From assembly GCA_002352055.1 (NCBI GenBank), contig DEHS01000088.1, positions 23,151 through 80,029 of the forward strand: a DNA stretch of 56,879 nt. Reading direction: 5' to 3'. The DNA is from Legionellaceae bacterium UBA2794. GTDB taxonomy: Bacteria; Pseudomonadota; Gammaproteobacteria; Legionellales; Legionellaceae. Positions 2,649-46,755 of this stretch are shown here, piece by piece; the stretch's first letter is position 1, and every line of letters begins with the position of its first letter. A program made the position numbers and the translations under genes. The notes below the pieces were generated by a model. That model saw only the letters and a program-made list of their open reading frames with translations. It was not told the origin of the DNA and did not search any database.

Positions 2649-2660
2649 AGTTTGGCGATA

Positions 2661-5954: not shown

Positions 5955-5972
5955 CTAAATCTGCGAGGCCCT

Positions 5973-11810: not shown

Positions 11811-11849
11811 AAATTTTAGAGATTCGCCATTCTATTGATTGAGACAACG

Positions 11850-12488: not shown

Positions 12489-12542
12489 GAATGATCCTGG
12501 TTGTAAAGAGGATGCTCACGATATTCTGCTTGGAAAAATATT

Positions 12543-13550: not shown

Positions 13551-13577
13551 TTTGGTTGAATCAATGAGAAAGCCACT

Positions 13578-13928: not shown

Positions 13929-13945
13929 TTTTACGGAAGTATATT

Positions 13946-20231: not shown

Positions 20232-21195
20232 TGAATTGCATTTTACTGATCAAGAGCTGATTGATTATTTATATGAAGGTTTTAAGGTTCAGGCTTTAAC
20301 ACTTCATTTTATTGAGGTGGGTTCTTTTTATGGGTTTATTGTGGAGACGAACCTGGATAAAAAATACTTCCTCAAAGTTTATCCTAAACATCAATCATTA
20401 GTGCCCATCCACCCAACAATGGATTCACTGAATCAAACAGGTATTGCTTTAAATCGTTTCAAAAAAGAATTTGGTCTAACCAACATCTCCCATATGCTTG
20501 CAAATCTTCACGGGGATTATTGTTTTGAGACCAAAGAATTAGTTTTAACTTTGTTTGATTATATTGAAGGAGTTCACCCCACTTATTCACCTAATCAACT
20601 TTTAGCAGATAAGATGGCATCTATTCTTTTTCAATTGCATCAAATACCCATTGAGTCTTTCTCATCGTTTGAGAGAGAACATTTTGATATCAGTTATGCA
20701 CTAGGAATGAATGATTGGATTAATCACAAAGTGAAAATTATTGATTCAATACATTCTAAAGAGATGCTGTCTCTATTAGAAAAACATAAAGAGCAATTAC
20801 TAAATAAATTGATTCAATTACAGGGATGGAAGAAACATTTTATCCAACAGAAGATTCCTTTTGTCATTACTCATGGTGACCCACATCATTATAATGTTCT
20901 GCAAACACCATTGGATGTATGGCTGGTTGATTGGGATGGAATAAAAATTGCCCCGAGGGAAAGAGATCTTTGGCATTATGAGCAAGCGCCAATGATTCAG
21001 TTTTATCAGAAATTAAATCCACAATATAAAACTAATCCTAAATTATGCCAATTCTATCAGCTGCAGCGATTCTTTGAAGACAGTCGTTATTATCTGGAAC
21101 AGGTTTTATTAGGAAAAAATAAAACAATGCAGCAGTCAGAAGAAGATAAAAATGCATTTTTATCGCATTGGGGATGGTCTATTTGTTTCATATAA
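20221..21195 (+). CDS. APH-fold phosphotransferase family protein
   Basis: ITHGDPHHYNVL and LVDWDGIKIAPRERDLW. 11-nt overlap with the upstream kinase gene. Confidence 0.7.
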   Translation: MSRNELHFTDQELIDYLYEGFKVQALTLHFIEVGSFYGFIVETNLDKKYFLKVYPKHQSLVPIHPTMDSLNQTGIALNRFKKEFGLTNISHMLANLHGDYCFETKELVLTLFDYIEGVHPTYSPNQLLADKMASILFQLHQIPIESFSSFEREHFDISYALGMNDWINHKVKIIDSIHSKEMLSLLEKHKEQLLNKLIQLQGWKKHFIQQKIPFVITHGDPHHYNVLQTPLDVWLVDWDGIKIAPRERDLWHYEQAPMIQFYQKLNPQYKTNPKLCQFYQLQRFFEDSRYYLEQVLLGKNKTMQQSEEDKNAFLSHWGWSICFI

Positions 21196-30038: not shown

Positions 30039-31430
30039 TTATAGTAACTCCCAGTGACCACCTTTATCTGGTCCGACGCGTTTTAAGCGCCCTTGTTCTT
30101 TTAGTTTATTTATTTGCTTTAATATTGCTCTTTGAGTTATACCTATAATTGTTCCTAATTGTTCTGTTGTAATAAATGGATCCTGTTTCATTAATTCAAG
30201 GATATGATTTTCAGTTTTCTGTGAACTTTTCTGTGAACTTTTCTGTGAACTTTCTAAGATTTCATGTGAGTCATAGGTTTTTCTATGAACTATAGCTGTG
30301 AACAAACATCCTTCTCGATCATCGCTAAAATCTATACTTGGCCATTGATCTAAAGCCCTTTTAATTCCGGAGCCAAGACCATGATAGGGTAATAATCCTT
30401 TAGCAACATAAGACACTAAAATCGGATTGCGTATATTGGAATTACCAGTCCTGATTTTTTCTACTGTTAAATTATCTGGTAGATGCCCTGGGCTAATAAT
30501 TTCAATGCGATTATCAAAGATAAATATTCGAATAGGTGCATTAACCAAATAATCCCGATGTACTAATGCATTGACTAGTAATTCTTCAAAAACACTTTCT
30601 GGGATCTCAGGTAATCCAGGGGCATTCACGCCTCGTCCAGCTTGGATTTTATGTAAATTACGCATAATAAATGCCATTGCATCATCAAATATTTTAGAAA
30701 GAGGTCCTACAAAATCCTCTGTATCTATATAATCAGTTGCGTGGATTTTATTACCTGGGTATCGAATGGCTTTTACCACAAATTGAGGTTTTATCCATTC
30801 TGGGCGCTCAGTAAACATGAGTACCCCAGCAAGATTTAAGACATTATCATCTGTTGCCAGATTCATATTTTTTAATAATTGCAGTAAATCTTCTACAGTA
30901 TCCGGGTATTCTTGTTTATAAACATCACGCAAAAAATCACGAAAACGCAGTTTGTCTAATTTATCGATGCCAGCTTTAGTAGGTAATTCATCTGCATAAA
31001 ATTGATCAGAGATTTGAAAGAGGCGTCTTAATTCTTCTTTTGAATTTATCCTTCGTTTGTCAGCCCCAGTTTTGAGCCAAATAACCCCATTTTTATCAAA
31101 ATAGGGTTTATCAATACCTTTGGGGATAGTAAGAATAATCACAACACGATTGTTTTCCAGAGCAACATTTTGTGTCTGTACGGTGACTGGACTGCGTACA
31201 AGATGACTGCTTGCATTGCTAATCAATTGGTTGATGCGATGAACATCTTCTTTAGATAATCCAGGTATTGAACCATCATCTGCAACTCCTATAAATATTG
31301 TGCCTCCATTAAAATTGGCAAATGCAGCTATTTCTGCGGCTAAAGATTCTGCATTACGTATGTCCAATTTAAATTGGCGGGTGCTGTCCTCTCCAAGCTC
31401 AATTTCATTATGTAATGATTTGAGATTCAT
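30039..31430 (-). CDS. AlbA_2 (Schlafen-like) + HATPase_c_4 + C-terminal winged-helix protein
   Basis: AAEIAAFANFNGGTIFIGVADDGSIPGL (AlbA_2), LLVNALVHRDY..ISPGHLP..IRNPIL (RecG-C/HATPase_c_4), C-terminal wHTH. 4-nt overlap with int. Confidence 0.75.
   Translation of the reverse strand: MNLKSLHNEIELGEDSTRQFKLDIRNAESLAAEIAAFANFNGGTIFIGVADDGSIPGLSKEDVHRINQLISNASSHLVRSPVTVQTQNVALENNRVVIILTIPKGIDKPYFDKNGVIWLKTGADKRRINSKEELRRLFQISDQFYADELPTKAGIDKLDKLRFRDFLRDVYKQEYPDTVEDLLQLLKNMNLATDDNVLNLAGVLMFTERPEWIKPQFVVKAIRYPGNKIHATDYIDTEDFVGPLSKIFDDAMAFIMRNLHKIQAGRGVNAPGLPEIPESVFEELLVNALVHRDYLVNAPIRIFIFDNRIEIISPGHLPDNLTVEKIRTGNSNIRNPILVSYVAKGLLPYHGLGSGIKRALDQWPSIDFSDDREGCLFTAIVHRKTYDSHEILESSQKSSQKSSQKTENHILELMKQDPFITTEQLGTIIGITQRAILKQINKLKEQGRLKRVGPDKGGHWELL
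30215..30250. repeat. perfect 3 x 12-bp tandem repeat inside a CDS (encodes SSQKSSQKSSQK)
   Basis: TTTTCTGTGAAC x3 read directly from the sequence. Confidence 0.9.
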
Positions 31431-32683
31431 AAAGTATTTTCCTTACATTCATTTAATAATGGCTGCCATGGTTGAACAGTTGAAGTCACTAAGCTGATAT
31501 TATTTTCTTTCTTCACTAACTCTTCAATATACTTTCCCCATTGATTTAATGCATCTTTGCGTTGAGGCAGCATTTCATTTTTATTATATGTTGCCATGAT
31601 TTTAGGCATCTTATGGCCTAAACATTTTTCAATAACCACAGGATCGATATGCAATGTTTCCCCGAGTTGAGTAGCAAAAGTTCTTCGCAAATCATGCGGC
31701 GTCCATTGAGGAATACCTAAGCGTTCCTGCAGACGAATTACTGCTTTAGGTAAAGCTTTATCGGAAAGAGGCAGGTCTTCATTGATTCCAGCAAGAACAT
31801 ATGTGGAGTTGTTCTGTGTTTTAAGTTCAAAGAAAAGTTGTTTAACTGGTTGGCTTAAATGGATTTTCATTGGGATTCGTGATTTAGAATGTTCTGCTGG
31901 TATAGTCCATAGAGAATTGATGAAATCAAATTCTTTCCATTGAGCGAGTCGTAATTCCCCGGTCCTAACTCCGGTCAATAAAATAATTTTTATAGCATTT
32001 TTTATTTGTAATGAAAGCGCATGTTTGTCACTGTCTAAAAAAAGCCAAAGATTTTTGATTTCATCAATGCTTAGATGGCGTTCTCTAGGTTTTTCCATGC
32101 CGCCGATGTCTTTTGCTAAAATACTCTCAGCAGGATTTTGCTGAATACTGCCACGGCGCACCCCATAACCTAATGCTTGTTTTAATGCAGCCAATACTTT
32201 ATTAGCATGAACTGGAGAACCACGATTTACAATTTTATCTAATGCTTGTGTGATATCTTTTGTTTTTAAAGCCTCAAGCTTTTTTTCGCCTAAAAGAGGG
32301 ATGATGTCTGCGTCAATAATTTGCTTAATTTGTTTGGGTTGTGCGCGCTGTTTTTCTATGTAACCAGTATACCAGTCAAGAACCAGTTTTTTTACTGTAC
32401 TGTGATCGTATTCATTTTGTTCTTTTATTATTTCTTTAGGATTTAGTCCTGCGCGTCGTTTATCTCTGAATTCTAAAAAACTTTTTCTGGCATCAGAAAG
32501 ACTCATTTCAGGATAATGCCCAAGAATAATGTAATCTTTTTTATTATCGATCTTATAACGGTAAATCCAGGTTTTTGTTCCAGTAGGGTAGATCATGATC
32601 CCAAATCCACCGCCTTCAAATTTTTCTTCCCGCTTGTCCTTTGGTTTTAGTCGTTTAATAAACGTGTCCGTAAATTGATTCAT
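31427..32683 (-). CDS. int: P4-type tyrosine site-specific integrase (DUF4102 arm-binding N-domain)
   Basis: GGFGIMIYPTGTKTWIYRYK, TGVRTGEL, HDLRRTFAT, LGHKMPKIMATYNK (R..HxxR..Y). Confidence 0.9.
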   Translation of the reverse strand: MNQFTDTFIKRLKPKDKREEKFEGGGFGIMIYPTGTKTWIYRYKIDNKKDYIILGHYPEMSLSDARKSFLEFRDKRRAGLNPKEIIKEQNEYDHSTVKKLVLDWYTGYIEKQRAQPKQIKQIIDADIIPLLGEKKLEALKTKDITQALDKIVNRGSPVHANKVLAALKQALGYGVRRGSIQQNPAESILAKDIGGMEKPRERHLSIDEIKNLWLFLDSDKHALSLQIKNAIKIILLTGVRTGELRLAQWKEFDFINSLWTIPAEHSKSRIPMKIHLSQPVKQLFFELKTQNNSTYVLAGINEDLPLSDKALPKAVIRLQERLGIPQWTPHDLRRTFATQLGETLHIDPVVIEKCLGHKMPKIMATYNKNEMLPQRKDALNQWGKYIEELVKKENNISLVTSTVQPWQPLLNECKENTL

Positions 32684-33122: not shown

Positions 33123-34328
33123 ATGGAAATAAGCAACATCGAAGATTTCAAACATATACTTCAAAGTGCCCGCCTGAACTTTCTTATTGGCTCTGGTCTT
33201 TCCACTCCTTATTTAAGAACATTGGGAGATATTGAAAATCGATTTGAAGAACTAGAGGCAACTGAAGATTGTGTAGCAAAAGAATTAGCACGCGCTTCAA
33301 TTATTAAAGTGTATTTTGAGTTGAGCATCAGTAAAAATTATGAACTTTGCCATAATCAATCAGAAGACTATCAAGCAGTATTAAATAATTACAAAGCATT
33401 TCTCCATAATCTAAACAAAATTATTTTATTAAGGAGAAGCAATCTTTTAAGTAAACAAGTAAATTTGTTTACAACTAATGTTGACATCTTTCTAGAAAAG
33501 TCTCTCGAAGAACAGCATCTTGAATTCAATGATGGTTTCACTGGTACTTTAAAACCAAGTTTTGAATTAAGCAATTTTAAAAAGTCACTTTACAAAACCA
33601 GTCCACATTATGATGTTAAATCAGAAGTACCTGTGTTTAATTTATTTAAGTTACATGGATCAGTTACGTGGCAATTAGACTCAAAAGAGTCAATCAAACT
33701 TGATAATAAGTTAGATATTATAAAAACTATGCGCTCACACCTGAATGCCTTACCTGATCAATTATTGGACGAGGCAACTAAAGATAATGGAAAAGATATT
33801 AAGACAATAGAGGAACTTCTATTGGGATATCAGGGTAAGAAAATTCATGAAGATATTCAATTACTTTTATCAAATCTGAAAGATTCTTATGCCCGTATTC
33901 CTATGATTAATCCTACAAAAGAGAAATTTAAATTTACTACACTGAACTATACATACTATGAATTATTAAGAATGTTCTCGAATGAAATGGAGAGAGAAAA
34001 TTCAGTTTTATTTGTGATGGGCTTTTCTTTTGCTGATGAGCATTTAAGAGAGATTGTTCTCAGAGCTATAAACTCCAATCCAACCCTTATTGTTTATATA
34101 TTTCCTTACGATGCAAAAGCAAAAGAACAAATTAAAGGATATCTAAAATTTCAAGATTGTCTGCCCAAAAATAACAACTTAAAGTTCGTTGTACACGAAG
34201 ACGAAACCATAAAAAACGATTTAGCCAATATAAATATGAATTATTTTGAAAAACTGGCGGATAGTTTAATTAGGCCAGAACAATCTAAATCGACACCAAC
34301 AGATCTAGATGGAGAAAAGAATGAGTAA
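33123..34328 (+). CDS. SIR2-like (SIR2_2) NAD-binding/NADase protein
   Basis: FLIGSGLS (33180-33203), LFTTNVD (~33470), FKLHGSVTW (~33650), FVMGFSFADEHL. Confidence 0.85.
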   Translation: MEISNIEDFKHILQSARLNFLIGSGLSTPYLRTLGDIENRFEELEATEDCVAKELARASIIKVYFELSISKNYELCHNQSEDYQAVLNNYKAFLHNLNKIILLRRSNLLSKQVNLFTTNVDIFLEKSLEEQHLEFNDGFTGTLKPSFELSNFKKSLYKTSPHYDVKSEVPVFNLFKLHGSVTWQLDSKESIKLDNKLDIIKTMRSHLNALPDQLLDEATKDNGKDIKTIEELLLGYQGKKIHEDIQLLLSNLKDSYARIPMINPTKEKFKFTTLNYTYYELLRMFSNEMERENSVLFVMGFSFADEHLREIVLRAINSNPTLIVYIFPYDAKAKEQIKGYLKFQDCLPKNNNLKFVVHEDETIKNDLANINMNYFEKLADSLIRPEQSKSTPTDLDGEKNE

Positions 34329-36204
34329 CTTTGTTGCTGATATTATAAGTAAATCCTCCGTCTTAAAAGTTGGGATAGTTATTTCAGTTGAGGGAAGAAC
34401 TATAAAGGTTTTGGTTGACAGAGAAAAAAACACTTCTCATCTTTTTTATAAAGGGGAGCTTGTTAAGAGCATTGTAGTAGGAAGCTATGTAAAAATTACA
34501 AAAGGCTTTGAGGAACTTGTTGGTAAAATAGAAGGTGAATATATAGAAGAAGATAATTTTCAATCTAAAAAAAACTACAAAACTGATTTAGCCAAAATTA
34601 GACGTATATTGGTAATTAGTTTGCTTGGGTATTTTAATGTATCTACTTTTGAAAGAGGAATTAAAGAACTGCCATTGATTGACAATGAATGCTTCTTATT
34701 AGATGAAAAAGAATTTAGTAGAGTTCACCATTTTATAAAAGAAGATGATACCCCTATTCACATAGGTCAGCTTGCTCAAGAACGTGGAATGTCTGTAGAT
34801 CTTGGTGTTAATGGGCTTTTTGCAAGCCATGTTGGAATTTTTGGAAATACTGGAAGTGGGAAATCCTATACTCTTGCGAGCTTATACCATACACTTTTTC
34901 AACAATACAAAGATATGACTGGCTTTAAAAAGAATGCTGCATTTTTTCTTATCGATTTTAATGGAGAATATATTAATCTAGAGGACAAAAATAATGATAA
35001 TGTCATTACAGATGCTTCCTATAAATCCACATATAACCTATCCACCAAGAAAACGGGCAATAAACAATTTCCGATTAATAAAGACTTTTTAACTGATGTC
35101 TCTATCTGGAAGATAATCTTGGAGGCTACCGAAAAAACACAAACACCATTTATCAGTAGAGCTATCTTCAATGATTATCTTGACAACCAAATTGGCAATA
35201 AAGAATTATTTAATGAATACATCATTGATTTAGTAAATCGAATATTAGAATCAAATAATTATTTATATATTGAACTTCCCTCAAAGCTTCTATCTGATAT
35301 AAATCAGATCATAAATGCTAATTTATCAACTCTAATTAATAAATTTAGACAGCATTTAAATTATCACGGAAAAGAAAATAATAAATTTTATTTGAGAATA
35401 GATGGTTCTTCAATTTACTTTGACAAAGCAGAATTTAAAAGTACTATTAGCGCTTGGTTTAAAGATGTAGATTTATATGATCCTCAGTTAAGTAATATAA
35501 AAAAAATATGGCTAAAATTCATTTGTCAGTACTATCACGAAATAATAAGTGGATATTCTAATCAAGAGCATTTGGCCCCTTTGATTAAAAGAATGGAAAC
35601 TCGAATTCCCGAGCTTGAAAAGGTCATTTGTGTAACCAAGGAGGGCAAAAAAAATAACCAGGCTATTAATTTTACTATTATTTCTTTGAAAGATGTTAAT
35701 ACTCATATGAAAAAAATTTTACCACTAATTTTATGTAAACAGTTATATGAAGAAAAGAAAGCTAATTCCAATAAGTGCTCTTTTTTGAACATTATTATAG
35801 ATGAAGCACACAACATCCTATCGGAAGATTCACAAAGAGAAAGTGAGCAATGGAAAGACTATCGCTTAGAAACTTTTGAGGAAATAATTAAAGAAGGACG
35901 TAAATTTGGGGTATTTTTAACTATTGCAAGTCAACGACCTTCTGATATTTCACCTACAATTATCTCACAACTCCATAATTATTTTTTGCATCGTCTTATT
36001 AACAATAACGATATAAAAGCAATAGAGCGAACAGTGTCCTATTTAGACAAAGTATCTTTTGAATCCTTACCTATCTTACCCACAGGAACATGTATTCTTG
36101 CAGGGCTTGTTGCTCAAGTTCCGGTTGTAGTGGAAATAAAAAAAATTGATGCTAAATATAAGCCATTTAATCAAACTATTGTACCAACAAAATATTGGAA
36201 TTAA
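34309..36204 (+). CDS. herA: HerA-like (DUF87) hexameric ATPase
   Basis: N-terminal HAS-barrel-like VGIVISVEGRTIKVLV. Walker A GIFGNTGSGKSYT (~34841-34870). Walker B NIIIDEAHNIL (~35791-35820). TIASQRPSDIS. Overlaps the SIR2 gene by 20 nt (8 nt if the ATG at 34321 is used). Confidence 0.85.
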   Translation: MEKRMSNFVADIISKSSVLKVGIVISVEGRTIKVLVDREKNTSHLFYKGELVKSIVVGSYVKITKGFEELVGKIEGEYIEEDNFQSKKNYKTDLAKIRRILVISLLGYFNVSTFERGIKELPLIDNECFLLDEKEFSRVHHFIKEDDTPIHIGQLAQERGMSVDLGVNGLFASHVGIFGNTGSGKSYTLASLYHTLFQQYKDMTGFKKNAAFFLIDFNGEYINLEDKNNDNVITDASYKSTYNLSTKKTGNKQFPINKDFLTDVSIWKIILEATEKTQTPFISRAIFNDYLDNQIGNKELFNEYIIDLVNRILESNNYLYIELPSKLLSDINQIINANLSTLINKFRQHLNYHGKENNKFYLRIDGSSIYFDKAEFKSTISAWFKDVDLYDPQLSNIKKIWLKFICQYYHEIISGYSNQEHLAPLIKRMETRIPELEKVICVTKEGKKNNQAINFTIISLKDVNTHMKKILPLILCKQLYEEKKANSNKCSFLNIIIDEAHNILSEDSQRESEQWKDYRLETFEEIIKEGRKFGVFLTIASQRPSDISPTIISQLHNYFLHRLINNNDIKAIERTVSYLDKVSFESLPILPTGTCILAGLVAQVPVVVEIKKIDAKYKPFNQTIVPTKYWN

Positions 36205-36290: not shown

Positions 36291-36829
36291 ATGAAGAGTA
36301 TGAGTATTTTTTTAGAAACAGAGCGACTAACTCTTAAAGTTCCCCAACTATTAGATTTAGAAAAGCTCATCGAGTTACGTGCTGATGCTGAAGTAATGAA
36401 ATACACAGGCGAAGGTGGGGCTCAAACCAAAGAACAAGTGCAAGACTATTTGAATTTCGCAATTTCTTATCAAAAAAACATGATATGGGATTTTGTTTAG
36501 TATTTGAAAAAGAAAGTGGGAACTTTGTTGGTGAAGCAGGCATATTTCATTTACTCTTTGATGACACCCAGCCTGAAATAGAAATCAACTATCATTTACA
36601 TAAAAAATTCTGGGGAAAAGGTTATGCTACTGAATTAGCCAAAGCTCTAATTGATTGGGGTTTTCAGCATTTATTAATTAATAAGATTGTTGCTGCCAGT
36701 TACCCAAAGCAAACCGCATCTCAAAGGGTATTGCAAAAATCAGGTTTTAATTTTAAGGGTAAAAAACTAACAAGCGATGGTTTGGAGTTATATTGGTACG
36801 AAATTCAAAAAAGGAAACCTCATGGATAA
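36291..36829 (+). pseudogene. GNAT (Acetyltransf_3) gene split by a 1-nt deletion in an A-run
   Basis: ORFs 36291-36500 and 36485-36829 are the two halves. With A8 instead of A7 at 36472-36478 the product reads ...NFAISYQKKHDMGFCLVFEKESGNFVGEAG... Confidence 0.7.
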
Positions 36830-38568: not shown

Positions 38569-38778
38569 TTATTGATAAGCGCTGACGTCATTAACTTTTT
38601 GACTAATCCATTGCTCAATAATTGCAGAATCCCAAGATAAAACATATCCGTTTATTTTAAATGGTTTGGGAAATTGTCCATTGGTCCACCATCGGCGCAA
38701 AGTTAGTCTGTTACGACCAATGAGTTGTTCAACATCTTTGATGAATAGTATGCGTTGTTTAAATTCCTTAGATTGCAT
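38569..38778 (-). CDS. alpA: AlpA-family phage/island regulatory protein (excisionase-like HTH)
   Basis: RILFIKDVEQLIGRNRLTLRRWWTNGQFPKPFKINGYVLSWDSAIIEQWI. Confidence 0.85.
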   Translation of the reverse strand: MQSKEFKQRILFIKDVEQLIGRNRLTLRRWWTNGQFPKPFKINGYVLSWDSAIIEQWISQKVNDVSAYQ

Positions 38779-38847: not shown

Positions 38848-38947
38848 GTTTCATGCAATACCTTTATCATAAAGAGTAGGCTATACATTTATGCTGTTGG
38901 TCTATATAATAAGCAACAACACATTACAATCAGTAAGGAGAGTTAGC

Positions 38948-39097
38948 ATGATTTTATTGGATATAATAGAAAATGCGGTTGGTAATGAGTATTTAGGAGA
39001 TGCTGAGCACCTAGATATTTGTGTAGTAGAAGATTATCTAACTATGTCTTCAAATCAGTTAGATCAACCATCAACCAATAAGATTGTGAGTTTATAA
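38948..39097 (+). CDS. 49-aa acidic peptide, candidate split-borosin precursor
   Basis: ATG at 38948 preceded by AAGGAG at 7 nt. Its stop is 6 nt before the methyltransferase ATG. MILLDIIENAVGNEYLGDAEHLDICVVEDYLTMSSNQLDQPSTNKIVSL. Confidence 0.4.
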   Translation: MILLDIIENAVGNEYLGDAEHLDICVVEDYLTMSSNQLDQPSTNKIVSL

Positions 39098-39103
39098 CAT
39101 TCA

Positions 39104-39904
39104 ATGCCCAATCTTATTGTCGTAGGCTCTGGCATCAAATCCATTTCTCATTTAACAGAAGAAACCAAACGAGTGATTCAAAATTCGGATAAGGTTCTCT
39201 ATCTAGTCAATGAGAATAATTTAAAGGCATGGATTGAGAGAGAAGCTAAGTTTGCAGAATCTCTAGAGCCTATTTATTTTAATTCCCCCAAAAGAATTGA
39301 TGCTTATCACAACATTACCCAATGCATTATTAACGAATATGAACGAGTAAATAATTTATGTGTTGTTTTTTATGGACACCCGACAGTTTTTGCTTCTTCT
39401 GCCTTAACAGCGGTAGAAAAAGTCAAAGCGATGCGGGGGAATGCTATTATTTTACCCGCAGTATCTGCAATGGATTGTCTTTTTAGTGAGCTGCGAATCG
39501 ATCCGGGCGAGCGTGGTTGCTTTTCTATTGATGCAACAGAGCTGCTGCTTTATGAACGCGTTCTTGATATTTTTTCTCATGTAATTTTATGGCAGTTATT
39601 CAACTTGGGCATGCATGATCGACAATTTACCTCCAAATTATACATATTAGTTGACTACTTAAATAGCTATTATCCTATAGATCACCCAGTTTGCCTTTAC
39701 GAAGGTGCAATGCTTCCCACACAAAAATCGCGGGTAGAATGGATAAAATTAGAGCAATTAAAAAACGCAGAGATTAAACCTACCTCCACATTGTATATAA
39801 AGCCTGTAATACAAAAGCAAATAAGTACAAAATATCTTAAACTTTTGGAAATAAATATAGAGGATTACGTTTTATCTGCAGAGTTGAATACATCCTCTAA
39901 ATAA
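39104..39904 (+). CDS. borosin-type peptide alpha-N-methyltransferase (OphMA/SonM-like, TP_methylase fold)
   Basis: Motif-by-motif match to my recollection of OphMA. LIVVGSGIKSI (GTGIESI). YFNSPKRIDAY (YDNGKSRLNTY). VVFYGHPTVF (VFYGHPGVF). ILPAVSAMDCLFSELRIDPGERGC ([23 protein letters not shown]). SHVILWQ (SHLVLFQ). TLYIKP (TFYIPP). No fused core peptide. Confidence 0.75.
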   Translation: MPNLIVVGSGIKSISHLTEETKRVIQNSDKVLYLVNENNLKAWIEREAKFAESLEPIYFNSPKRIDAYHNITQCIINEYERVNNLCVVFYGHPTVFASSALTAVEKVKAMRGNAIILPAVSAMDCLFSELRIDPGERGCFSIDATELLLYERVLDIFSHVILWQLFNLGMHDRQFTSKLYILVDYLNSYYPIDHPVCLYEGAMLPTQKSRVEWIKLEQLKNAEIKPTSTLYIKPVIQKQISTKYLKLLEINIEDYVLSAELNTSSK

Positions 39905-41170
39905 TTTTGCGTCACTTGCAAATTCAGTGTCGTTATTGCAATGGGAAAATGCAAATCGTTTGTCTTTATCTAAAATTTCCGTTGAGTTGCTTATGTTATT
40001 TAATCCCTTAGATTGATAATGATAAAAGGACAATTTAGTTTCCTTGCTTACGTGGTAAAGGGGACTTCCATATGCATCGCCGTGGGTATCTGAAAATTCC
40101 TCTTGATAAGCCAGTAATACATTTTTCAATGTTTCAAGTTCAGTTAAAGTGCTATTGCTTTGATTGGTCTTAAATGTGTTTATTTTAGTAAAAGGGCATT
40201 GTAGAGGATAATAAATAGTATCGTGTTGTTTATCTAAACAGGAAGGGATCATTACAGTTGGGGTATATTCGAGCCCATAGCACTCATTATAAATTTTCTG
40301 TATCTCTTTTACTGGAAAATATTGTTCATCAGTTGCAGGTTTTACGCCTATCCCTGAACCCATACAAATATTAAAAATATATTTTGCTGTATCGATAATA
40401 TAGGGGGTAGGTCGAAAGCGATTAATTTTTTTTGCACTTAAGAATAAGTCGTAGTATGAGGCATCATAAGTATTTTGAGTTAATTTTTTCCTTAATGATT
40501 CTGAGAAATAAAGTTTTAATTCAATCCATTTTGGGTTGTATTTTACTTCACGAATAAATTCTTCGGTAAAATACAGAATTTGACTGTGCCATTTTGTTTT
40601 ACTGTGTTTATTGTGGAGTAGTGCTTTAAAAATCTGATAGTGCTCATAAGGTGATTTTGGCGCAGGATAGGAAATGTCAAAATATTTTTGAATTCTTCCG
40701 TGTCTTCTTGTGCAGCCAATATTAGGCAGTAGGAAAGAAGATAAGACTCCTGAAGAAACCGACAAGACATTGTTATCGACTGTATTTTCCTCATCAAAAA
40801 CAATTTGCATATTAAAAATGGCGCCGGGTCCTTGGATGCAATCTGGAAATAGTCGATTGTTTTCTCCGAAGTAATGCCATTCACAAAATTTATCCATAAT
40901 CATCCCCATAGGATGACTATTTTTTCCATAACCTAAATGGTGAAATATTTCATTATCGGTATGCTTACTGTTTATTTCTGCCAATTGGCCTGAATAGTTA
41001 GGTAGGTACACCTGGTTTTTAATACCAAAATGTTCACCAAATCTAAAATGTGCAAGAAAAAATGGAATCTTTTTGGGGTTTATTTTCTCTAAAACCTGAT
41101 ACAGCAAAGGATTTACTTTTTGAATGAGATGCTTGATTTCTTCCCATGAGACTTTTTTGATTTGGTTCAT
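39872..41170 (-). CDS. hypothetical 432-aa protein
   Basis: Long ORF, no motif recognised. Its 3' end overlaps the methyltransferase 3' end by 33 nt (convergent). Confidence 0.5.
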   Translation of the reverse strand: MNQIKKVSWEEIKHLIQKVNPLLYQVLEKINPKKIPFFLAHFRFGEHFGIKNQVYLPNYSGQLAEINSKHTDNEIFHHLGYGKNSHPMGMIMDKFCEWHYFGENNRLFPDCIQGPGAIFNMQIVFDEENTVDNNVLSVSSGVLSSFLLPNIGCTRRHGRIQKYFDISYPAPKSPYEHYQIFKALLHNKHSKTKWHSQILYFTEEFIREVKYNPKWIELKLYFSESLRKKLTQNTYDASYYDLFLSAKKINRFRPTPYIIDTAKYIFNICMGSGIGVKPATDEQYFPVKEIQKIYNECYGLEYTPTVMIPSCLDKQHDTIYYPLQCPFTKINTFKTNQSNSTLTELETLKNVLLAYQEEFSDTHGDAYGSPLYHVSKETKLSFYHYQSKGLNNISNSTEILDKDKRFAFSHCNNDTEFASDAKLFRGCIQLCR

Positions 41171-41259
41171 CCTAAACGCCTTAATTAAATCAACTCTACA
41201 TTTATGATTTTTATAAAATTAATTTAAATGTAAAAAAGAGTTAATCGTAACCAATTTTA

Positions 41260-42780
41260 ATGTTAGAGTCACCAGCTCAAATGAAATTAAGGAAGAAAAT
41301 GAGTTTTATGATGCAACGAATGCCTAAAGGAACTACCTCACTTTATTTTGCTCAAGCCTTCTCAACCTTTGCTTATGCAGTGCTGTATGCTTGTTTAACC
41401 CTGTATTTAACTAAACAACTTGGATTATCGAATACCGCTTCTAACAGTATTGTTGGATTATTTTTAGCATTTAATTATGTGCTACATTTGCTAGGTGGGA
41501 CCATCGGTGGGAGTTATTTGAGTAATCGATCGCTAATTATTGTGACCACCATAATACAAAGTATTGGAATTGTGTTATTAGCATGGTCTGAGAAAAATTT
41601 GCTCTACACGGGGCTGAGTTTATTTTTAATAGGGTCCGGATTAAACACCACTTGCTGTAATTCTTTATTGACCCAACTTTTTCCATCAGATGATAGCCGG
41701 AAAGATAAAGCATTCTTTTGGAGCTACTCGGCAATGAATGTTGGTTTTTTTGCTGGCTATATTGTGAGCGGACTCTTTGACTATAAAAACCAGTATCAAC
41801 AATTATTTTATGCAAGTGCAGTAATTAATATGCTCACTGTGGTTTTTATTTTGTATCGATGGAAAGAGTTCAAGGATCATGACACATTCTTGGCAACATT
41901 AAAAAATCAAACTCAAAAACAAATCAAGAATTATTTGGGTGTTGTAGGAATATTAATTTTAGTTCCTATTTTGATACTCTGTTTTCATGATGCAAATTTA
42001 AGTAATTATTTGGTTATTTTAATCAGCATTTTCATGTTTTTTGTGATCTTGGCTCTAGGATTACGGCAAAAACTAAAGAGTGATCAGAAAAAGATTATGG
42101 TTTATCTCGTTTTAACGGTAACTTCCATTGTGTTTTGGATGATTTATTATACTGGGCCTATGGGTGTGACTTTATTTATTAAAAACAACGTAGACAAACA
42201 TTTCCTCAATTATGAAGTGCCAACCCAGTGGATCTTGAATATTAATACCATACTCATTATTGCTGGTGCACCCTTGTTATCCATGTTAATTAATAAATTA
42301 CAATCCGAAGGTTTTAAAGTTTCTGTTACCAAACAGTTTGTATGCGCCTTTTTTGCTTTAGCACTTTCATTTCTGTTTCTCACTGCTGCAGTAATATTTT
42401 CAAATGGGGATGGGTATTGCAGCTTAATTTGGATTGTATTGCATTATGCAGCGCAATCGATTGCTGAATTACTTATAGGTCCAGTTGGTTATGCGATGAT
42501 AGGACGTATTGCACCAGCAAAATTGCATGGTATTTTAATGGGAACCTGGATGATGGTATCTGGCGTTTCCGCATCCTTATCCCAATTATTTTCTAATAAT
42601 ATGGTTAAAACAGAGTCATCAGTTCCTTTAGTAACAAATCCAGATTATTTGTCAGTGTTTAACCAATTATGCCTTTGGGCTCTATTTGGAGGAATATTTT
42701 TATATTTGGTCTCTAGTAAAATTGGATCATGGGTTGATGGTAAAAATAAACAACAAAGTGCTGCGCTTGATGCGACCTAA
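41260..42780 (+). CDS. POT/PTR2-family (MFS) oligopeptide transporter
   Basis: About 12-14 hydrophobic segments. GGTIGGSYLSNR and PTR2-type FFWSYSAMNVGFFAG motifs. Confidence 0.8.
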   Translation: MLESPAQMKLRKKMSFMMQRMPKGTTSLYFAQAFSTFAYAVLYACLTLYLTKQLGLSNTASNSIVGLFLAFNYVLHLLGGTIGGSYLSNRSLIIVTTIIQSIGIVLLAWSEKNLLYTGLSLFLIGSGLNTTCCNSLLTQLFPSDDSRKDKAFFWSYSAMNVGFFAGYIVSGLFDYKNQYQQLFYASAVINMLTVVFILYRWKEFKDHDTFLATLKNQTQKQIKNYLGVVGILILVPILILCFHDANLSNYLVILISIFMFFVILALGLRQKLKSDQKKIMVYLVLTVTSIVFWMIYYTGPMGVTLFIKNNVDKHFLNYEVPTQWILNINTILIIAGAPLLSMLINKLQSEGFKVSVTKQFVCAFFALALSFLFLTAAVIFSNGDGYCSLIWIVLHYAAQSIAELLIGPVGYAMIGRIAPAKLHGILMGTWMMVSGVSASLSQLFSNNMVKTESSVPLVTNPDYLSVFNQLCLWALFGGIFLYLVSSKIGSWVDGKNKQQSAALDAT

Positions 42781-42926: not shown

Positions 42927-43169
42927 ATGGACTGTTTAGCAGATACTTTTGTATCTGATTCTGTTTTAAATTTTAAATGTAAAAAAGAATCGCAAAAATA
43001 TTTAATCGAGTTTATGTTAAAGTGTGGCAGCTATGATTTGCAAGATTTAGCTGAGTTATTGGATGTAAATGTGCTTCAGCTAAGTGATGTGCTTTGTGGA
43101 AAAAGTTATTTAAACACTGACGTTTCGAAAAATCTGGTTAATTGGTTTGTGTTGTTACTGCGGGAATAA
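42927..43169 (+). CDS. hypothetical small protein (possible HTH)
   Basis: 80-aa ORF. DLAELLDVNVLQLSDVLCGKSYL is HTH-like. Confidence 0.35.
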   Translation: MDCLADTFVSDSVLNFKCKKESQKYLIEFMLKCGSYDLQDLAELLDVNVLQLSDVLCGKSYLNTDVSKNLVNWFVLLLRE

Positions 43170-44352: not shown

Positions 44353-45042
44353 ATGAACAAGGTTTTTTGGGAAAATCCTTATCAGCGTTCTTTACTAACC
44401 TATGTGGTGTCAGTTGAAGGGCAACGTATTTTATTGAATGATACCATTGCTTTTTCTTTTTCAGGAGGACAAGAAAGCGATAAAGCTTGGATTATGGATT
44501 ATCCAGTTTTTGATTCTGAATTAGCCGGCCATCTTATTTATTATATGCTTCCTAAAGAGCATCAACTTGCTGTTGGCGATGAAGTGCTTATGACCATTGA
44601 CTGGCCACGTCGATACCGGCTGATGCGTTTGCATTTTGCTGCGGAATTAGTTCTTGAATTAGTGACGCGCAAATTAGCTGTGCAAAAAATTGGGGCACAT
44701 ATTGCTGAAGGAAAAGCTCGAATTGATTTCATGATGGAACAAAATATTTCGGCTATTTTTATTCCTTTAATAGCAGAATATGAGCATATCATCAAAGCAG
44801 ACCTGACTATTAAAACAGGATTTTCTGATGTGATGACACAAAGACGTTATTGGGAAATAGAAGGATTTTCAAGAGTGGCTTGTGGTGGTACTCATGTAAA
44901 ATCTACCGCAGAAATTGGATTCATCACCCTAAAAAGAGTTAATATTGGCGGTGGAAAAGAACGTATAGAAATAAAGCTAATTGATCCCGATTTAGGTTTA
45001 AAAGATGAAGACCAACTTAATAAACGAACACCGAATTCTTGA
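44353..45042 (+). CDS. AlaX-like aminoacyl-tRNA editing domain protein (tRNA_SAD)
   Basis: MRLHFAAELV (HxxxH-region equivalent) and CGGTHV zinc/editing motif. 3-nt gap after the DUF2000 gene. Confidence 0.7.
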   Translation: MNKVFWENPYQRSLLTYVVSVEGQRILLNDTIAFSFSGGQESDKAWIMDYPVFDSELAGHLIYYMLPKEHQLAVGDEVLMTIDWPRRYRLMRLHFAAELVLELVTRKLAVQKIGAHIAEGKARIDFMMEQNISAIFIPLIAEYEHIIKADLTIKTGFSDVMTQRRYWEIEGFSRVACGGTHVKSTAEIGFITLKRVNIGGGKERIEIKLIDPDLGLKDEDQLNKRTPNS

Positions 45043-46252
45043 TTCGAATCTTCTTGATACAATCACTCATATATTAAATAAGAAATTTGCTGCGGAGGTT
45101 ACAATAAGCTCCACGCAGTTTTTAAGTGAGCCTGAACGTAGAAATTGCCTAGTCAGACTATTTTTATCAAGTCAAACAAAAGAAATCCCTGCAAGTATTA
45201 TTTTAAAGCAATCTTTGCGAGAAGACACCGATGCTGATGATGAGGATGCTTATGCACGCTTTGCAAGAGATTGGGCGGGTCTTGAGTTTGCCTCAGAGAT
45301 TAAGCAAAACAAGCATAATGTCCCAAAATTTTTTGGTGGAGATAAAGAAAACCGATTTATCCTTATTGAAGATTTAGGCATGCAGCATGTGAGTTTAGTG
45401 GATTCATTGACCAGAGCCGATCGTAAAAATGCGATTGCCGCCTTAACCCGCTTTATGAAAGCTTTAGGCAGCTTTCATGCAGCAAGTTTTGGAAATACCG
45501 CGCTTTATGAACAAATTTTGCAATCAGTTCATCCTGAGGCGGAAACTATTGATGATGAGCTTAGCTTTGCATTTAATGATTTGTTGCCGAAACTCGATTT
45601 GGCAAATAAAAATTTAGGTTTAACTTTAACTAAAGAATGCATTGAAGAAGCTAAATCTTTAATTGAATATACAATAAAACCTGAGCTTTTTACTGTGCTG
45701 ACCCATGGGGATATTTGTCCTGATAATGTATTTGATCATGCAGACACTAAAGATTTGCAGCTTATTGATTTTGAATGGTGTGTGGTACGGAATCCATTGT
45801 TAGATGGGACTTATTTGCGAATGAGTATGCCAACCTGTTGGTGTGCTAAAGCAATTCCTACAGATGTCATTGAACATTTAGAATACATCTATAGAGAAGA
45901 ACTCAAACAAACTATTCCAGAAGCAGCTGATGACCAACAATATAATAAAGCGTATACCTATGCCTGTGGCTTTTGGCTTTTACAACAAACGATACCTTTC
46001 ATTAATTCAACTCGGGAGCAAGACAGGATTGGACCTTCAGGTCCTGTACCGAAGGATTCTTTCTGGAGTGATGAAGAGAATTGGGTTAGGCCCAGAGTTT
46101 TATCGAGGTTGCAAGCATTTATAGAGTGCAGCAGTGTTCATCAGCATTTACCCCACTTACAACAAATGGCTTTAGCAATGTTGACTGAATTAAAACAGTG
46201 TTGGCCTGAAACATCGTTTCTCAAATTTTATCCTGCATTTGGACAAGGGTAA
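45005..46252 (+). CDS. APH-fold kinase family protein
   Basis: LTHGDICPDNVF and LIDFEW. 38-nt overlap with the upstream gene. Confidence 0.65.
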   Translation: MKTNLINEHRILDSNLLDTITHILNKKFAAEVTISSTQFLSEPERRNCLVRLFLSSQTKEIPASIILKQSLREDTDADDEDAYARFARDWAGLEFASEIKQNKHNVPKFFGGDKENRFILIEDLGMQHVSLVDSLTRADRKNAIAALTRFMKALGSFHAASFGNTALYEQILQSVHPEAETIDDELSFAFNDLLPKLDLANKNLGLTLTKECIEEAKSLIEYTIKPELFTVLTHGDICPDNVFDHADTKDLQLIDFEWCVVRNPLLDGTYLRMSMPTCWCAKAIPTDVIEHLEYIYREELKQTIPEAADDQQYNKAYTYACGFWLLQQTIPFINSTREQDRIGPSGPVPKDSFWSDEENWVRPRVLSRLQAFIECSSVHQHLPHLQQMALAMLTELKQCWPETSFLKFYPAFGQG

Positions 46253-46281
46253 AACTTAAAACATCTTATAAAAATCCCCTG

Positions 46282-46755
46282 TTAAATGCTGTATTCAAAA
46301 ACAACAGGATATCGATTTGGCATCATAGGGGATTTTTTAACACCAATTTTGATACACCCCATTTTCTTATAGAATGACTCAGCTCCCGGGTCGCTCCACA
46401 AAGTAAATTTCTTAACGTCACAGAATTGTAGGTCTTCAATTAGACGATGCCACATTTTCTTACCAAATCCTTTACCAATGTATTCGGGATCAATAAAAAA
46501 ATTATCCAGTTCATGAAGACCCTCAGCATTTAAACCAAAACTATAAAATCCAATCATTTTATTGCATTGAGTTCCCGAAAATTCGCCCAAAAGCTTCACG
46601 GTATTTTTTTCAAGATAATCCGCTTTTATTTGAAATAATTGCATGAATTGATTCATAAATGCTTCATTGTATCCCCAATGGGCTTTTGAACGATGCATTA
46701 ATAAGTTGATTTCATCTAAGTCATCAGTACTAATTTTTATGCATTTTAAGATCAT
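46282..46755 (-). CDS. GNAT family N-acetyltransferase
   Basis: FFIDPEYIGKGFGKKMW, FYKKMG. Confidence 0.8.
   Translation of the reverse strand: MILKCIKISTDDLDEINLLMHRSKAHWGYNEAFMNQFMQLFQIKADYLEKNTVKLLGEFSGTQCNKMIGFYSFGLNAEGLHELDNFFIDPEYIGKGFGKKMWHRLIEDLQFCDVKKFTLWSDPGAESFYKKMGCIKIGVKKSPMMPNRYPVVFEYSI

What the first reader, a model, noticed from the sequence alone, without database searches (positions are those of the whole stretch)
38948..42780. Candidate split-borosin RiPP locus: small peptide gene + OphMA-like backbone N-methyltransferase + unknown protein + POT peptide transporter
Seen in sequence:
- The 266-aa protein (39104-39904) matches the borosin alpha-N-methyltransferase domain at essentially every conserved block I remember from OphMA. 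These include the Y/R/Y catalytic cluster region (YFNSPKRIDAY), VFYGHPxVF and LPxVSAxDCLFxxLxIDP.
- It lacks a fused C-terminal core, so it is the split (trans-acting) type.
- Six nt upstream ends a 49-aa acidic ORF with a strong AAGGAG RBS and a hydrophobic C-terminus (NKIVSL). This fits a separate precursor.
- Convergent and divergent neighbours are a 432-aa protein with no recognisable domain and a POT-family oligopeptide transporter, a plausible exporter.
- An MccF/LdcA-type S66 peptidase lies 0.4 kb away, on the far side of alpA.

Established knowledge: split borosins occur in bacteria.

Inference: a backbone-N-methylated peptide from a Legionella-type host would, as far as I know, be new.
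Basis: partly seen in the sequence, partly recalled or inferred. Interest (0 to 1): 0.7.

Follow-up and report, generated by a model that had tools for sequence, protein, structure and literature searches.

The report
Legionella split borosin peptide cassette
This is a genuine gene set for putting methyl groups on the backbone of a small ribosomal peptide, but the same Legionella family is already catalogued and has a tested member; what is probably unreported is a conserved 432-residue partner protein of unknown function.

Summary
The 266-aa protein (39104-39904) matches only borosin backbone N-methyltransferases among solved structures: dbOphMA 9e-40, OphMA, SonM and MroMA about 1e-36, with no corrin enzyme even at E<=1. 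It keeps the Tyr/Arg/Tyr/Tyr active-site residues.

The 49-aa ORF (38948-39097) is a real gene. A profile built from 26 peptides of other Legionella loci finds it at E=1.8e-13; the next-best ORF in the window scores 0.06.

It belongs to the LepA1 precursor family of L. pneumophila. The leader reads xLLDxIExAVGNEYL and the core reads QPxxNKIVx[IL]. Other species carry the core twice.

The peptide, methyltransferase, 432-aa protein, POT transporter and an 80-aa protein form a fixed cassette in at least 28 Legionella species, often beside an integrase or AlpA. The S66 peptidase is not part of it.

The novelty claim fails. Legionellales borosins that lack the usual binding domain are already described, and LepM1/LepM2 are listed as characterised (Cho 2022; Imani 2022; Lee 2024).

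One point appears unreported. The 432-aa protein belongs to a family with more than 1,200 representative sequences and no Pfam model. It accompanies only these binding-domain-less borosins, plus a YcaO/TfuA/ATP-grasp cluster on plasmid pLPP.

The parts
38569..38778 (-). AlpA-family small DNA-binding protein. It marks the mobile-island side of the cassette.
   Evidence: PF05930 at 4.3e-07. A homologue sits in the same position upstream of the peptide gene in 10 related loci. In other species an integrase and an AlpA-sized ORF occupy this position.
38882..38910 (+). Promoter-like site for the peptide and methyltransferase genes (TATACA, 17 nt, TATAAT).
   Evidence: 10 of 12 matches. The block GCTATACC...TTATACAAT lies at the same distance upstream of the peptide gene in all 28 aligned loci. 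It falls inside the alternative 68-aa reading, which favours the ATG at 38948. The scan as a whole found no more sites than shuffled sequence does, so conservation is the evidence here, not the scan.
38935..38940 (+). Ribosome-binding site AAGGAG, 7 nt before the ATG.
   Evidence: Read directly from the sequence.
38948..39097 (+). Precursor peptide of 49 aa: MILLDIIENAVGNEYLGDAEHLDICVVEDYLTMSSNQLDQPSTNKIVSL. The conserved leader is residues 1-16 (38948-38995). The middle is acidic and variable.
   Evidence: tblastn hits directly upstream of the methyltransferase in 23 loci. Family HMM E=1.8e-13. 41% identity to LepA1, pairwise E=3e-10.
39065..39094 (+). Predicted core QPSTNKIVSL. The hydrophobic I-V-S-L stretch is the probable site of backbone N-methylation.
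   Evidence: The motif QP[HDNS]xNKIVx[IL] is conserved across species and occurs twice in the precursors of the 258-aa methyltransferase group. L030 carries three or four AIAQPN repeats. The methylation sites are inferred from SonA, where L63 and I65 of YLVISHG are methylated.
39104..39904 (+). Split borosin alpha-N-methyltransferase, 266 aa.
   Evidence: PDB phmmer finds only borosin enzymes with E<1e-35 and no corrin methylase at E<=1. Y58, R64, Y68 and Y90 align with OphMA Y66, R72, Y76 and Y98 and are invariant in 19 Legionellales homologues. Pfam reports only the superfamily PF00590.
39872..41170 (-). 432-aa accessory protein (p432) of a large uncharacterised family. It is convergent with the methyltransferase, with a 33-nt overlap of the 3' ends.
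   Evidence: About 70% identical across Legionella species and present in 28 of 30 close methyltransferase loci. 1,220 representative sequences at E<=1e-3. No Pfam, NCBIfam or PDB sequence hit. AF2 model pLDDT 89; only a partial CRP/cNMP-binding-like match, TM 0.27 on the query and 0.45 on the target.
41260..42780 (+). POT/PTR2-family oligopeptide:H+ transporter, 506 aa, divergent from p432.
   Evidence: PF00854 at 3.2e-29; TIGR00924 at 203 bits against a cut-off of 130. Found next to p432 in 25 related loci. Distant versions of the module carry an MFS_1 transporter instead.
42927..43169 (+). Conserved 80-aa protein, possibly a Cro/HigA-like helix-turn-helix regulator.
   Evidence: Found downstream of the POT gene in 22 loci. 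A profile search against PDB gives only weak Cro/HigA/YbaQ hits, E 0.06-1. The fold assignment is therefore tentative.

Best explanation
The locus is a member of the Legionellales group of split borosin RiPP clusters, the group that lacks a borosin binding domain (BBD). It is the same kind as LepM1/LepA1 of L. pneumophila.

Proposed steps, each marked by its basis:
- The 49-aa peptide is translated from a conserved promoter together with the methyltransferase (shown by conservation).
- The enzyme, presumably a homodimer as in OphMA and SonM, uses SAM to methylate one to three backbone amide nitrogens in the hydrophobic C-terminal core NKIVSL (inferred by homology).
- It recognises the peptide through the short conserved N-terminal leader xLLDxIExAVGNEYL rather than through a five-helix BBD (inferred).
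- The conserved 432-aa protein acts on the same peptide, either presenting the leader to the enzyme or cutting the core out (weakly supported inference).
- The POT transporter moves the resulting short peptide across the inner membrane, direction unknown (inferred).
- The 80-aa protein may regulate the genes (speculative).

The five genes travel as one cassette on integrase/AlpA islands, and related modules sit on conjugative plasmids.
For: Enzyme:
- All significant PDB sequence matches are borosin N-methyltransferases: dbOphMA 9e-40, OphMA 1e-36, SonM 1.3e-36, MroMA 2e-35.
- Equivalents of OphMA Y66, R72, Y76 and Y98 are present and invariant. The matching SonM residues Y58, R67, Y71 and Y93 were shown to matter for activity.
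- The YGHP and DCLF motifs used for borosin detection are present.

Precursor:
- It is conserved in position and sequence in 23 or more loci, with HMM E=1.8e-13.
- The core motif is duplicated in other species, a hallmark of RiPP precursors.
- It is 41% identical to LepA1, which is listed among 'characterized borosins'.

Cassette:
- p432 is present in 28 of 30 close loci, POT in 25 and the 80-aa gene in 22.
- The identical gene order occurs in the L. pneumophila chromosome CP021260.1 next to an integrase.

Distant modules:
- The same peptide, methyltransferase, p432 and MFS arrangement is found in MAGs and on the LPE509 plasmid.
Against: - No methylation was or could be shown for this peptide here, and I could not read what Cho et al. 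measured for LepM1.
- OphMA Y63 is replaced by Glu55.
- The leader shows no detectable relation to the BBD (hhalign probability 1.4%), so how the enzyme finds its substrate is unknown.
- Nothing assigns p432 a biochemical activity. Its only structural match is partial (TM 0.27/0.45, rmsd about 9 A). Its C-terminal half alone folds poorly and matches nothing.
- POT proteins are normally importers of di- and tripeptides, whereas the conserved core unit is about 10 residues long.
- One second-copy methyltransferase locus (L031) has no p432 within 6 kb. One p432 homologue (L064) has no methyltransferase within 4 kb.
Confidence: 0.78

Rival explanations
1. The enzyme is a borosin-type methyltransferase, but its physiological substrate is not the 49-aa peptide. 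It would methylate p432 or another protein, and the small ORF would be a regulatory or coupling peptide.
For: p432 is more conserved than the methyltransferase (about 70% against about 62% identity) and co-occurs with it strictly. Borosin precursors can reach about 600 aa. On pLPP a p432-like protein lies next to YcaO/TfuA, enzymes known to modify a protein (McrA) in methanogens; the McrA point is from my own knowledge.
Against: The small ORF has a conserved leader and a conserved, sometimes duplicated, hydrophobic core at its C-terminus. That is the arrangement seen in SonA and LepA1. p432 has no repetitive or hydrophobic tail resembling a core. LepA1 is listed as the precursor of a characterised pair.
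Confidence: 0.06
2. The cassette is an inactive or decaying passenger of a mobile island and makes no product.
For: It lies in a region full of island cargo: integrase, SIR2-HerA, relaxase, and many GNAT and APH genes. At least one neighbouring gene is frameshifted.
Against: All five ORFs are intact. Catalytic residues are invariant, the promoter and RBS are conserved, and the proteins are 35-74% identical across 28 or more species with gene order kept. This indicates purifying selection.
Confidence: 0.05
3. The 266-aa protein is an ordinary tetrapyrrole (corrin/siroheme) methylase or a YabN-like enzyme, as database names suggest.
For: Pfam gives only PF00590. NCBIfam's best hit is YabN_Meth_PPase. 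Public names include 'tetrapyrrole methylase' and 'YabN ... MazG'.
Against: The YabN hit scores 64 bits against a cut-off of 525, and cobJ/cbiH 18.5 against 246. No CobA, CysG or CbiF structure is matched even at E<=1, while 25 borosin entries score below 1e-35. No cobalamin or siroheme genes are nearby.
Confidence: 0.01

Closest known systems
LepM1/LepA1 of Legionella pneumophila (Cho et al. 2022, Biochemistry 61:183; listed in Table S1 of Lee et al. 2024, bioRxiv 10.1101/2024.01.09.574750), belonging to the BBD-less Legionellales borosins for which that paper built 'Legionellales Borosin group A/B' HMMs
   Same: - Separate methyltransferase and short precursor.
- Leader LExAVGNEYL and core QPxSNKIV (41% identity).
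- No BBD.
- The same cassette with p432, POT and the 80-aa gene in L. pneumophila.
- An integrase nearby.
   Different: - The window enzyme is only about 60-65% identical to L. pneumophila homologues.
- It is of the 266-aa subgroup, whose 3' end overlaps p432.
- Its precursor has one core, ending at the C-terminus, rather than two cores followed by a K-x-INA tail.
- A 6-nt gap separates peptide and enzyme genes, instead of an 8-nt overlap.
SonM/SonA of Shewanella oneidensis MR-1 (type IV split borosin; product shewanellamide A)
   Same: - Stand-alone methyltransferase of about 263 aa, E=1.3e-36.
- The same active-site Tyr/Arg/Tyr/Tyr.
- Precursor with a hydrophobic C-terminal core.
   Different: - SonA carries a five-helix borosin binding domain that supplies most of the binding affinity. 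The window peptide (49 aa) has none (hhalign probability 1.4%).
- SonM clusters have no p432 homologue. None of 25 BBD-type or other distant loci has one.
OphMA / dbOphMA (fungal fused borosins, types I-III)
   Same: Best structural-database sequence match, 9e-40 over residues 3-250. All conserved blocks are shared.
   Different: The fungal proteins carry the BBD and core fused to the enzyme and modify themselves. Here enzyme and substrate are separate genes. OphMA Y63 is Glu here.
SamM/SamA/SamP (shewasin A) of Shewanella amazonensis, the only bacterial borosin system with an assigned peptidase
   Same: A roughly 400-450-aa accessory protein is encoded with the methyltransferase. This is a possible functional analogy for p432.
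   Different: p432 shows no relation to the pepsin-like SamP (hhalign probability 0.1%), and no pepsin fold appears among the Foldseek hits.

Membership tests
Borosin alpha-N-methyltransferase (OphMA/SonM clade of PF00590) | Closer in sequence to known borosin enzymes than to corrin/siroheme methylases | tested here: met
   The 25 best PDB sequences are all borosin enzymes, E from 9e-40 to 2e-35. No tetrapyrrole methylase appears at E<=1.
Borosin alpha-N-methyltransferase (OphMA/SonM clade of PF00590) | Active-site Tyr, Arg, Tyr and the Tyr of YGHP (OphMA Y66/R72/Y76/Y98; SonM Y58/R67/Y71/Y93) | tested here: met
   Window Y58, R64, Y68 and Y90 align with them and are invariant in 19 homologues. 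The role of the SonM residues is described. OphMA Y63 is Glu55 here.
Borosin alpha-N-methyltransferase (OphMA/SonM clade of PF00590) | YGHP and DCLFAD signature motifs used by the antiSMASH BorosinMT rule | tested here: met
   VFYGHPTVF and MDCLFSEL are present. The motifs are described. The HMMs themselves were not run.
Borosin alpha-N-methyltransferase (OphMA/SonM clade of PF00590) | Catalyses backbone amide N-methylation of a ribosomal peptide | not testable with these tools
   Needs co-expression and LC-MS/MS.
Type IV split borosin (SonM/SonA type) | Methyltransferase and precursor are separate genes | tested here: met
   The 266-aa enzyme has no extension beyond the methyltransferase domain. 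The 49-aa ORF ends 6 nt upstream.
Type IV split borosin (SonM/SonA type) | Precursor carries a five-helix borosin binding domain (BBD) | tested here: not met
   The peptide is 49 aa, whereas the BBD alone is about 53 aa. A profile of 16 Legionellales precursors against a profile of 11 BBDs gives hhalign probability 1.4%. The literature states the same.
BBD-less Legionellales borosins (LepM1/LepA1 type; 'class 4' of Xu et al. 2024) | Short precursor with the conserved Legionellales leader and core motifs, next to the methyltransferase | tested here: met
   HMM of 26 family peptides gives E=1.8e-13. Identity to LepA1 is 41%, E=3e-10. The published BoroLegA/B HMMs were seen but not run.
BBD-less Legionellales borosins (LepM1/LepA1 type; 'class 4' of Xu et al. 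2024) | No BBD anywhere in the cluster | tested here: met
   No BBD in the peptide or in p432 (hhalign probability 0.4%). The methyltransferase has no extra domain.
Fused borosins (types 0-III) | Core peptide and BBD fused to the methyltransferase | tested here: not met
   The enzyme ends 16 residues after the aligned domain. That tail is the antisense of the conserved C-terminus of p432.
Tetrapyrrole methylases proper (CobA/CysG/CbiF) or YabN | Reaches the curated family cut-off, or is closest to those enzymes | tested here: not met
   YabN scores 64 bits against a cut-off of 525; cobJ/cbiH 18.5 against 246. No such PDB hit.
POT/PTR2 peptide transporters | Passes the curated thresholds of PF00854 and TIGR00924 | tested here: met
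   102.5 bits against 27, and 203 bits against 130. Substrate and direction were not tested.
CRP/FNR-type cyclic-nucleotide-binding proteins (considered for p432) | cNMP-binding beta-roll plus a C-terminal winged-helix DNA-binding domain | tested here: inconclusive
   Foldseek E=1.6e-4, but TM only 0.27 (query) and 0.45 (target), rmsd about 9 A, 9-11% identity. The same picture appears against viral models. No Pfam cNMP_binding or HTH_Crp hit.

The most novel reading that the evidence does not exclude
The 432-aa protein defines a large, so far unnamed family. It has 1,220 representatives at the 50% clustering level, no Pfam model, and a C-terminal half with no match in PDB. In this reading it is a dedicated peptide-handling partner of RiPP-like pathways in Legionellales and related intracellular bacteria.

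In borosin clusters that have lost the BBD, it would take over either precursor recruitment for the methyltransferase or excision of the core. A distant member would do the same job in a YcaO/TfuA/ThiF/ThiS/ATP-grasp cluster on plasmid pLPP.

Together with the POT transporter, this would point to short modified peptides as the exchanged products.
Probability: 0.3. Interest if true: 0.65.

Novelty: new member of a known kind. Interest (0 to 1): 0.4.

Why it matters
As a borosin locus it adds little. The Legionellales group is already in the genome-mining literature and has a characterised representative.

It still marks open ground. No Legionella borosin product, target or biological role is known. 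How a borosin methyltransferase finds a substrate that has no binding domain is unexplained.

The analysis also shows that the functional unit is larger than enzyme plus peptide. A 432-aa protein of unknown fold family, a peptide transporter and a small putative regulator are inherited with them across the genus. Relatives of the 432-aa protein accompany a different peptide-modifying chemistry.

That gives a concrete, testable candidate for the missing recognition or maturation step. It also gives an extra marker gene for mining this class.

Tried and rejected
- S66/LdcA peptidase as cluster protease: rejected. No homologue in 58 related loci.
- Corrin or YabN methylase: rejected.
- 68-aa reading of the small ORF (ATG 38891): disfavoured. 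The conserved promoter lies inside it, and homologues begin at the position of 38948.
- BBD hidden in p432: hhalign probability 0.4%.
- Leader as a BBD remnant: probability 1.4%.
- p432 as a SamP-like aspartic peptidase: probability 0.1%.
- p432 against PDB by sequence, singly and as a profile: nothing.
- p432 and 10 distant relatives against Pfam: nothing credible.
- C-terminal half of p432 modelled alone: pLDDT 75.6, with the other four models at 43-59. No Foldseek match with E<1. It is probably not an independent domain.
- His384/Asp403/Cys427 as a catalytic triad: considered from conservation only. No protease fold was found, so it is not claimed.
- An 18-nt similarity between the peptide promoter and the p432-POT intergenic region (38881-38898 and 41194-41211, 83%): not conserved in other loci, so treated as chance.
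I used seven single look-ups instead.
- Cho et al. 2022 and the final ACS versions of Imani 2022 and Lee 2024 are not held. What exactly was measured for LepM1 is therefore unknown to me.

Full report
**What is in the sequence**

- A 49-aa ORF runs from ATG 38948 to the stop at 39095-39097. AAGGAG lies at 38935-38940, 7 nt upstream of the ATG.
- Six nucleotides after its stop, a 266-aa ORF starts (39104-39904).
- A 432-aa ORF (39872-41170, minus strand) converges on the 266-aa ORF, and their 3' ends overlap by 33 nt.
- A 506-aa ORF (41260-42780) diverges from the 432-aa gene.
- Pfam and NCBIfam call the 506-aa protein a POT/PTR2 oligopeptide:H+ symporter, above the curated thresholds. They give only the superfamily PF00590 for the 266-aa protein and nothing for the 432-aa or 49-aa products.
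- The exact methyltransferase sequence is on record from a Legionella sp. MAG, and the G+C content is about 35%.

**The enzyme**

A phmmer search of all PDB chains returns 25 significant sequences, and every one is a borosin backbone N-methyltransferase: dbOphMA 9e-40, OphMA about 1e-36, SonM 1.3e-36, MroMA 2e-35. The matches cover residues 3-250. No CobA, CysG or CbiF enzyme appears even at E<=1.

In the printed alignment, OphMA Y66, R72, Y76 and Y98 correspond to window Y58, R64, Y68 and Y90. All four are invariant in an alignment of 19 Legionellales homologues. The equivalent SonM residues (Y58, R67, Y71, Y93) were shown by mutagenesis to matter. OphMA Y63 is Glu55 here.

The best NCBIfam hit (YabN) scores 64 bits against a cut-off of 525. 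This explains the misleading public names 'tetrapyrrole methylase/MazG'.

**The small ORF is a real, conserved precursor**

A scan of one genome per GTDB species with the methyltransferase alignment gave 58 loci.
- In 23 of them, tblastn finds a relative of the 49-aa peptide directly upstream of the methyltransferase.
- Extracting the ORFs shows a family with three parts: an N-terminal leader xLLDxIExAVGNEY[LF], a variable acidic middle, and a C-terminal motif QP[HDNS]xNKIVx[IL][KQ].
- In the subgroup whose methyltransferase is 258 aa, the core motif occurs twice, for example ...QANSNKIVSIQKQHQPDSNKIVNIK.... One divergent locus (L030) has three or four AIAQPN repeats. Repeated cores are typical of RiPP precursors.
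- An HMM built from 26 non-redundant family members, without the window, finds the window ORF at E=1.8e-13 among 1,099 six-frame ORFs. The runner-up scores 0.06.
- A conserved promoter-like block (GCTATACC ... TTATACAAT) precedes the gene in all aligned loci. It corresponds to the window site at 38882-38910.

**The cassette**

Of the 30 genome loci whose methyltransferase is at least 59% identical to the window's:
- 28 carry a homologue of the 432-aa protein (65-74% identity). The exceptions are a 2.5-kb contig and a second copy in L. santicrucis.
- 25 carry the POT gene next to it.
- 22 carry an 80-aa gene after that, matching window 42927-43169.
- AlpA precedes the peptide gene in 10 loci.

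In the 258-aa subgroup, a tyrosine integrase and a small AlpA-sized ORF sit there instead, downstream of dnaG-rpoD. Variable genes (GNAT, resolvase, helicase) can be inserted between the methyltransferase and the 432-aa gene.

The L. pneumophila chromosome CP021260.1 shows the order integrase, 61-aa two-core peptide, methyltransferase, GNAT, 447-aa protein, POT, 80-aa protein. That methyltransferase sequence is indexed in 735 blocks of the collection.

The S66 peptidase of the window has no counterpart in any related locus. It is a neighbour, not a member.

**What is already known**

- Imani et al. (bioRxiv 10.1101/2021.12.24.474128) counted 81 Legionellales sequences among 'type IV' borosins and noted that their methyltransferase domains diverge.
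- Lee et al. (bioRxiv 10.1101/2024.01.09.574750) state that a subset of Legionellales clusters lack a BBD. They built HMMs named 'Legionellales Borosin group A/B', infer loss of the BBD, and note nearby phage integrases.
- Their Table S1, 'characterized borosins', lists LepM1 (WP_061716904.1) with the precursor MDLLSKLEQAVGNEYLSNQNGLTIKINQEKQRQADS..SLQPDSNKIVNFKKINA, and also LepM2. Both cite Cho et al. 2022, Biochemistry 61:183.
- The window peptide is 41% identical to that precursor.
- Xu et al. 2024 (PMC11395268) show a class with a separate methyltransferase and core and no BBD.

I could not read Cho et al., so I do not know which sites were methylated or whether the 432-aa gene was considered. 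In the texts and supplements I could search, neither the 432-aa protein nor the transporter is mentioned for these clusters.

**Membership**

The locus meets the sequence criteria of a borosin methyltransferase and of the BBD-less Legionellales group. It does not meet the defining feature of SonA-type (type IV) systems.
- The precursor is shorter than a BBD.
- A profile-profile comparison of 16 Legionellales precursors with 11 BBDs gives probability 1.4%.
- The BBD has not moved into the 432-aa protein either (probability 0.4%).

Within the group, the window represents the 266-aa, single-core subgroup, not the 258-aa, two-core subgroup of LepM1. The extra conserved C-terminal tail of the 266-aa enzymes (LSxExxTSxK) is the antisense of the conserved C-terminus of the 432-aa protein (DAKLFRGC...). 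Gene overlap, not function, therefore explains it.

**The 432-aa protein**

This is the part that goes beyond the literature I could read.
- A profile of 29 Legionella members finds 1,220 representatives (50% clustering) at E<=1e-3 and 705 at E<=1e-30 among 1.84 billion proteins. Nearly all of the 150 best hits listed match over their full length, 430-470 aa.
- Ten sampled members have no Pfam domain.
- Seven genome contexts of distant members were retrieved. Five contain a PF00590 methyltransferase with a small upstream ORF and an MFS or POT transporter. One has a class-I methyltransferase-like gene plus MFS. One stands alone.
- The small ORFs fall into two leader families. One is the window's type, for example MNIIEKIENLVGLEYL...QKPNSNAIIL in L065. 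The other is LepA2-like, of the form MSxI..xE...
- The same module is on the conjugative plasmid of L. pneumophila LPE509, where the 64-aa precursor is unannotated.
- Conversely, none of 25 loci with more distant methyltransferases has a homologue. Six of these (L032, L036, L039, L040, L042, L057) have clear BBD-type precursors.

Presence of this protein is thus complementary to presence of a BBD.

A more distant member (22.5% identity, E=1e-13) on plasmid pLPP of strain Paris sits in a different cluster. That cluster holds a POT transporter, HTH proteins, an ATP-grasp enzyme overlapping it, ThiS, ThiF, YcaO and TfuA.

The AlphaFold2 model is confident (pLDDT 89.2, pTM 0.88). Even so, Foldseek finds only a partial resemblance to CRP/FNR cyclic-nucleotide-binding regulators: E=1.6e-4, TM 0.27 on the query and 0.45 on the target, rmsd about 9 A. 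The same is seen against viral models.

The C-terminal half modelled alone is poor and matches nothing. It is not related to the Shewanella borosin peptidase SamP.

Residues invariant across distant members are W9, P87, E97, G116, G141, F181, W194, F201, G271, P286, Y298 and C427. H177, H384 and D403 are nearly invariant.

**How it most likely works**

- Shown or strongly supported: a borosin-type methyltransferase and a LepA1-type precursor are co-transcribed from a conserved promoter as part of a five-gene mobile cassette.
- Inferred by homology: the enzyme methylates backbone amides in the hydrophobic end of the core (N-K-I-V-S-L). SonM does this at L63 and I65 of YLVISHG.
- Inferred from distribution only: the 432-aa protein handles the same peptide, either by binding the short leader in place of the lost BBD or by releasing the core. 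The transporter moves a short product, and the 80-aa protein regulates. For the 80-aa protein the only support is weak Cro/HigA-like matches, E 0.06-1.
- Unexplained tension: POT proteins are typically importers of di- and tripeptides, and that does not fit a 10-residue unit.

**Verdict**

The finding is real and correctly recognised as a split borosin. It is a new member of a known, already mined and partly characterised group, so its novelty as stated is low.

The residual interest lies in three things: the unknown product, the unknown way of substrate recognition without a BBD, and the conserved 432-aa partner family.

Noticed in passing
window 39872-39904: The methyltransferase and the 432-aa gene converge and overlap by 33 nt. 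The conserved C-terminal tail of the 266-aa methyltransferases (LSxExxTSxK) is the antisense of the conserved C-terminus of the 432-aa protein. The 258-aa subgroup, whose genes do not overlap, lacks the tail.
   Followed up: partly
L066 (NC_006365.1, plasmid pLPP of L. pneumophila Paris, 4469-13602): A distant relative of the 432-aa protein (420 aa, 22.5% identity) lies in a different peptide-modification cluster. The cluster holds a LOG-like protein, a POT transporter, a TrmB-like HTH protein, a 64-aa HTH-like protein, the relative itself, ATP-grasp, ThiS, ThiF, YcaO and TfuA. No precursor-like small ORF was evident.
   Followed up: partly
L067 (NC_020522.1, L. pneumophila LPE509 plasmid) 6116-6310, minus strand: An unannotated 64-aa ORF (MSLISKLEKMAYEPLSD...CETHVVSC) lies between an MFS transporter and a borosin-type methyltransferase that converges on a 446-aa relative of the 432-aa protein. 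It is a LepA2-like precursor missed by the annotation.
   Followed up: yes
window 33123-36204: A SIR2-like protein (PF13289) is followed, with overlap, by a HerA/DUF87 ATPase. This looks like a SIR2-HerA anti-phage pair. It was not checked against PADLOC.
   Followed up: no
window 30039-32683, minus strand: A tyrosine integrase with an Arm DNA-binding domain lies next to a Schlafen/AlbA_2-HATPase-wHTH protein. No tRNA gene occurs anywhere in the window.
   Followed up: no
window 4815-11810: A TrwB-type coupling protein matches its profile only from position 71 of 387, so it may be truncated or split from ORF 4105-4809. It is followed by a 1,945-aa TrwC relaxase-helicase with a C-terminal DUF7146-Toprim region. 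This looks like a remnant or part of a conjugative element.
   Followed up: no
window 36291-36829: A GNAT acetyltransferase appears frameshifted. A 69-aa ORF (36291-36500) overlaps a 114-aa ORF (36485-36829) that matches only positions 56-138 of PF13302.
   Followed up: no
window 41223-41239 and 42972-42988: An exact 17-nt direct repeat, TTTAAATGTAAAAAAGA, occurs once in the intergenic region between the 432-aa gene and POT and once inside the start of the 80-aa gene. It could be chance in AT-rich DNA.
   Followed up: no
L030 2639-2824 (uncultured Legionella MAG): A divergent borosin locus (methyltransferase 46% identical) has the family leader (KLEQLVGNEYF) but a core of three or four AIAQPN repeats. 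It has no 432-aa homologue or POT within 6 kb downstream.
   Followed up: partly
window 1488-3710, 12543-15013, 19269-21195, 45005-46755, 53121-54494: There is an unusual density of GNAT acetyltransferases and APH/EcKL-type phosphotransferases, including fusions: RibD_C-methyltransferase, uridine-kinase-like-GNAT and GNAT-nucleotidyltransferase. This is typical island cargo of unknown role.
   Followed up: no
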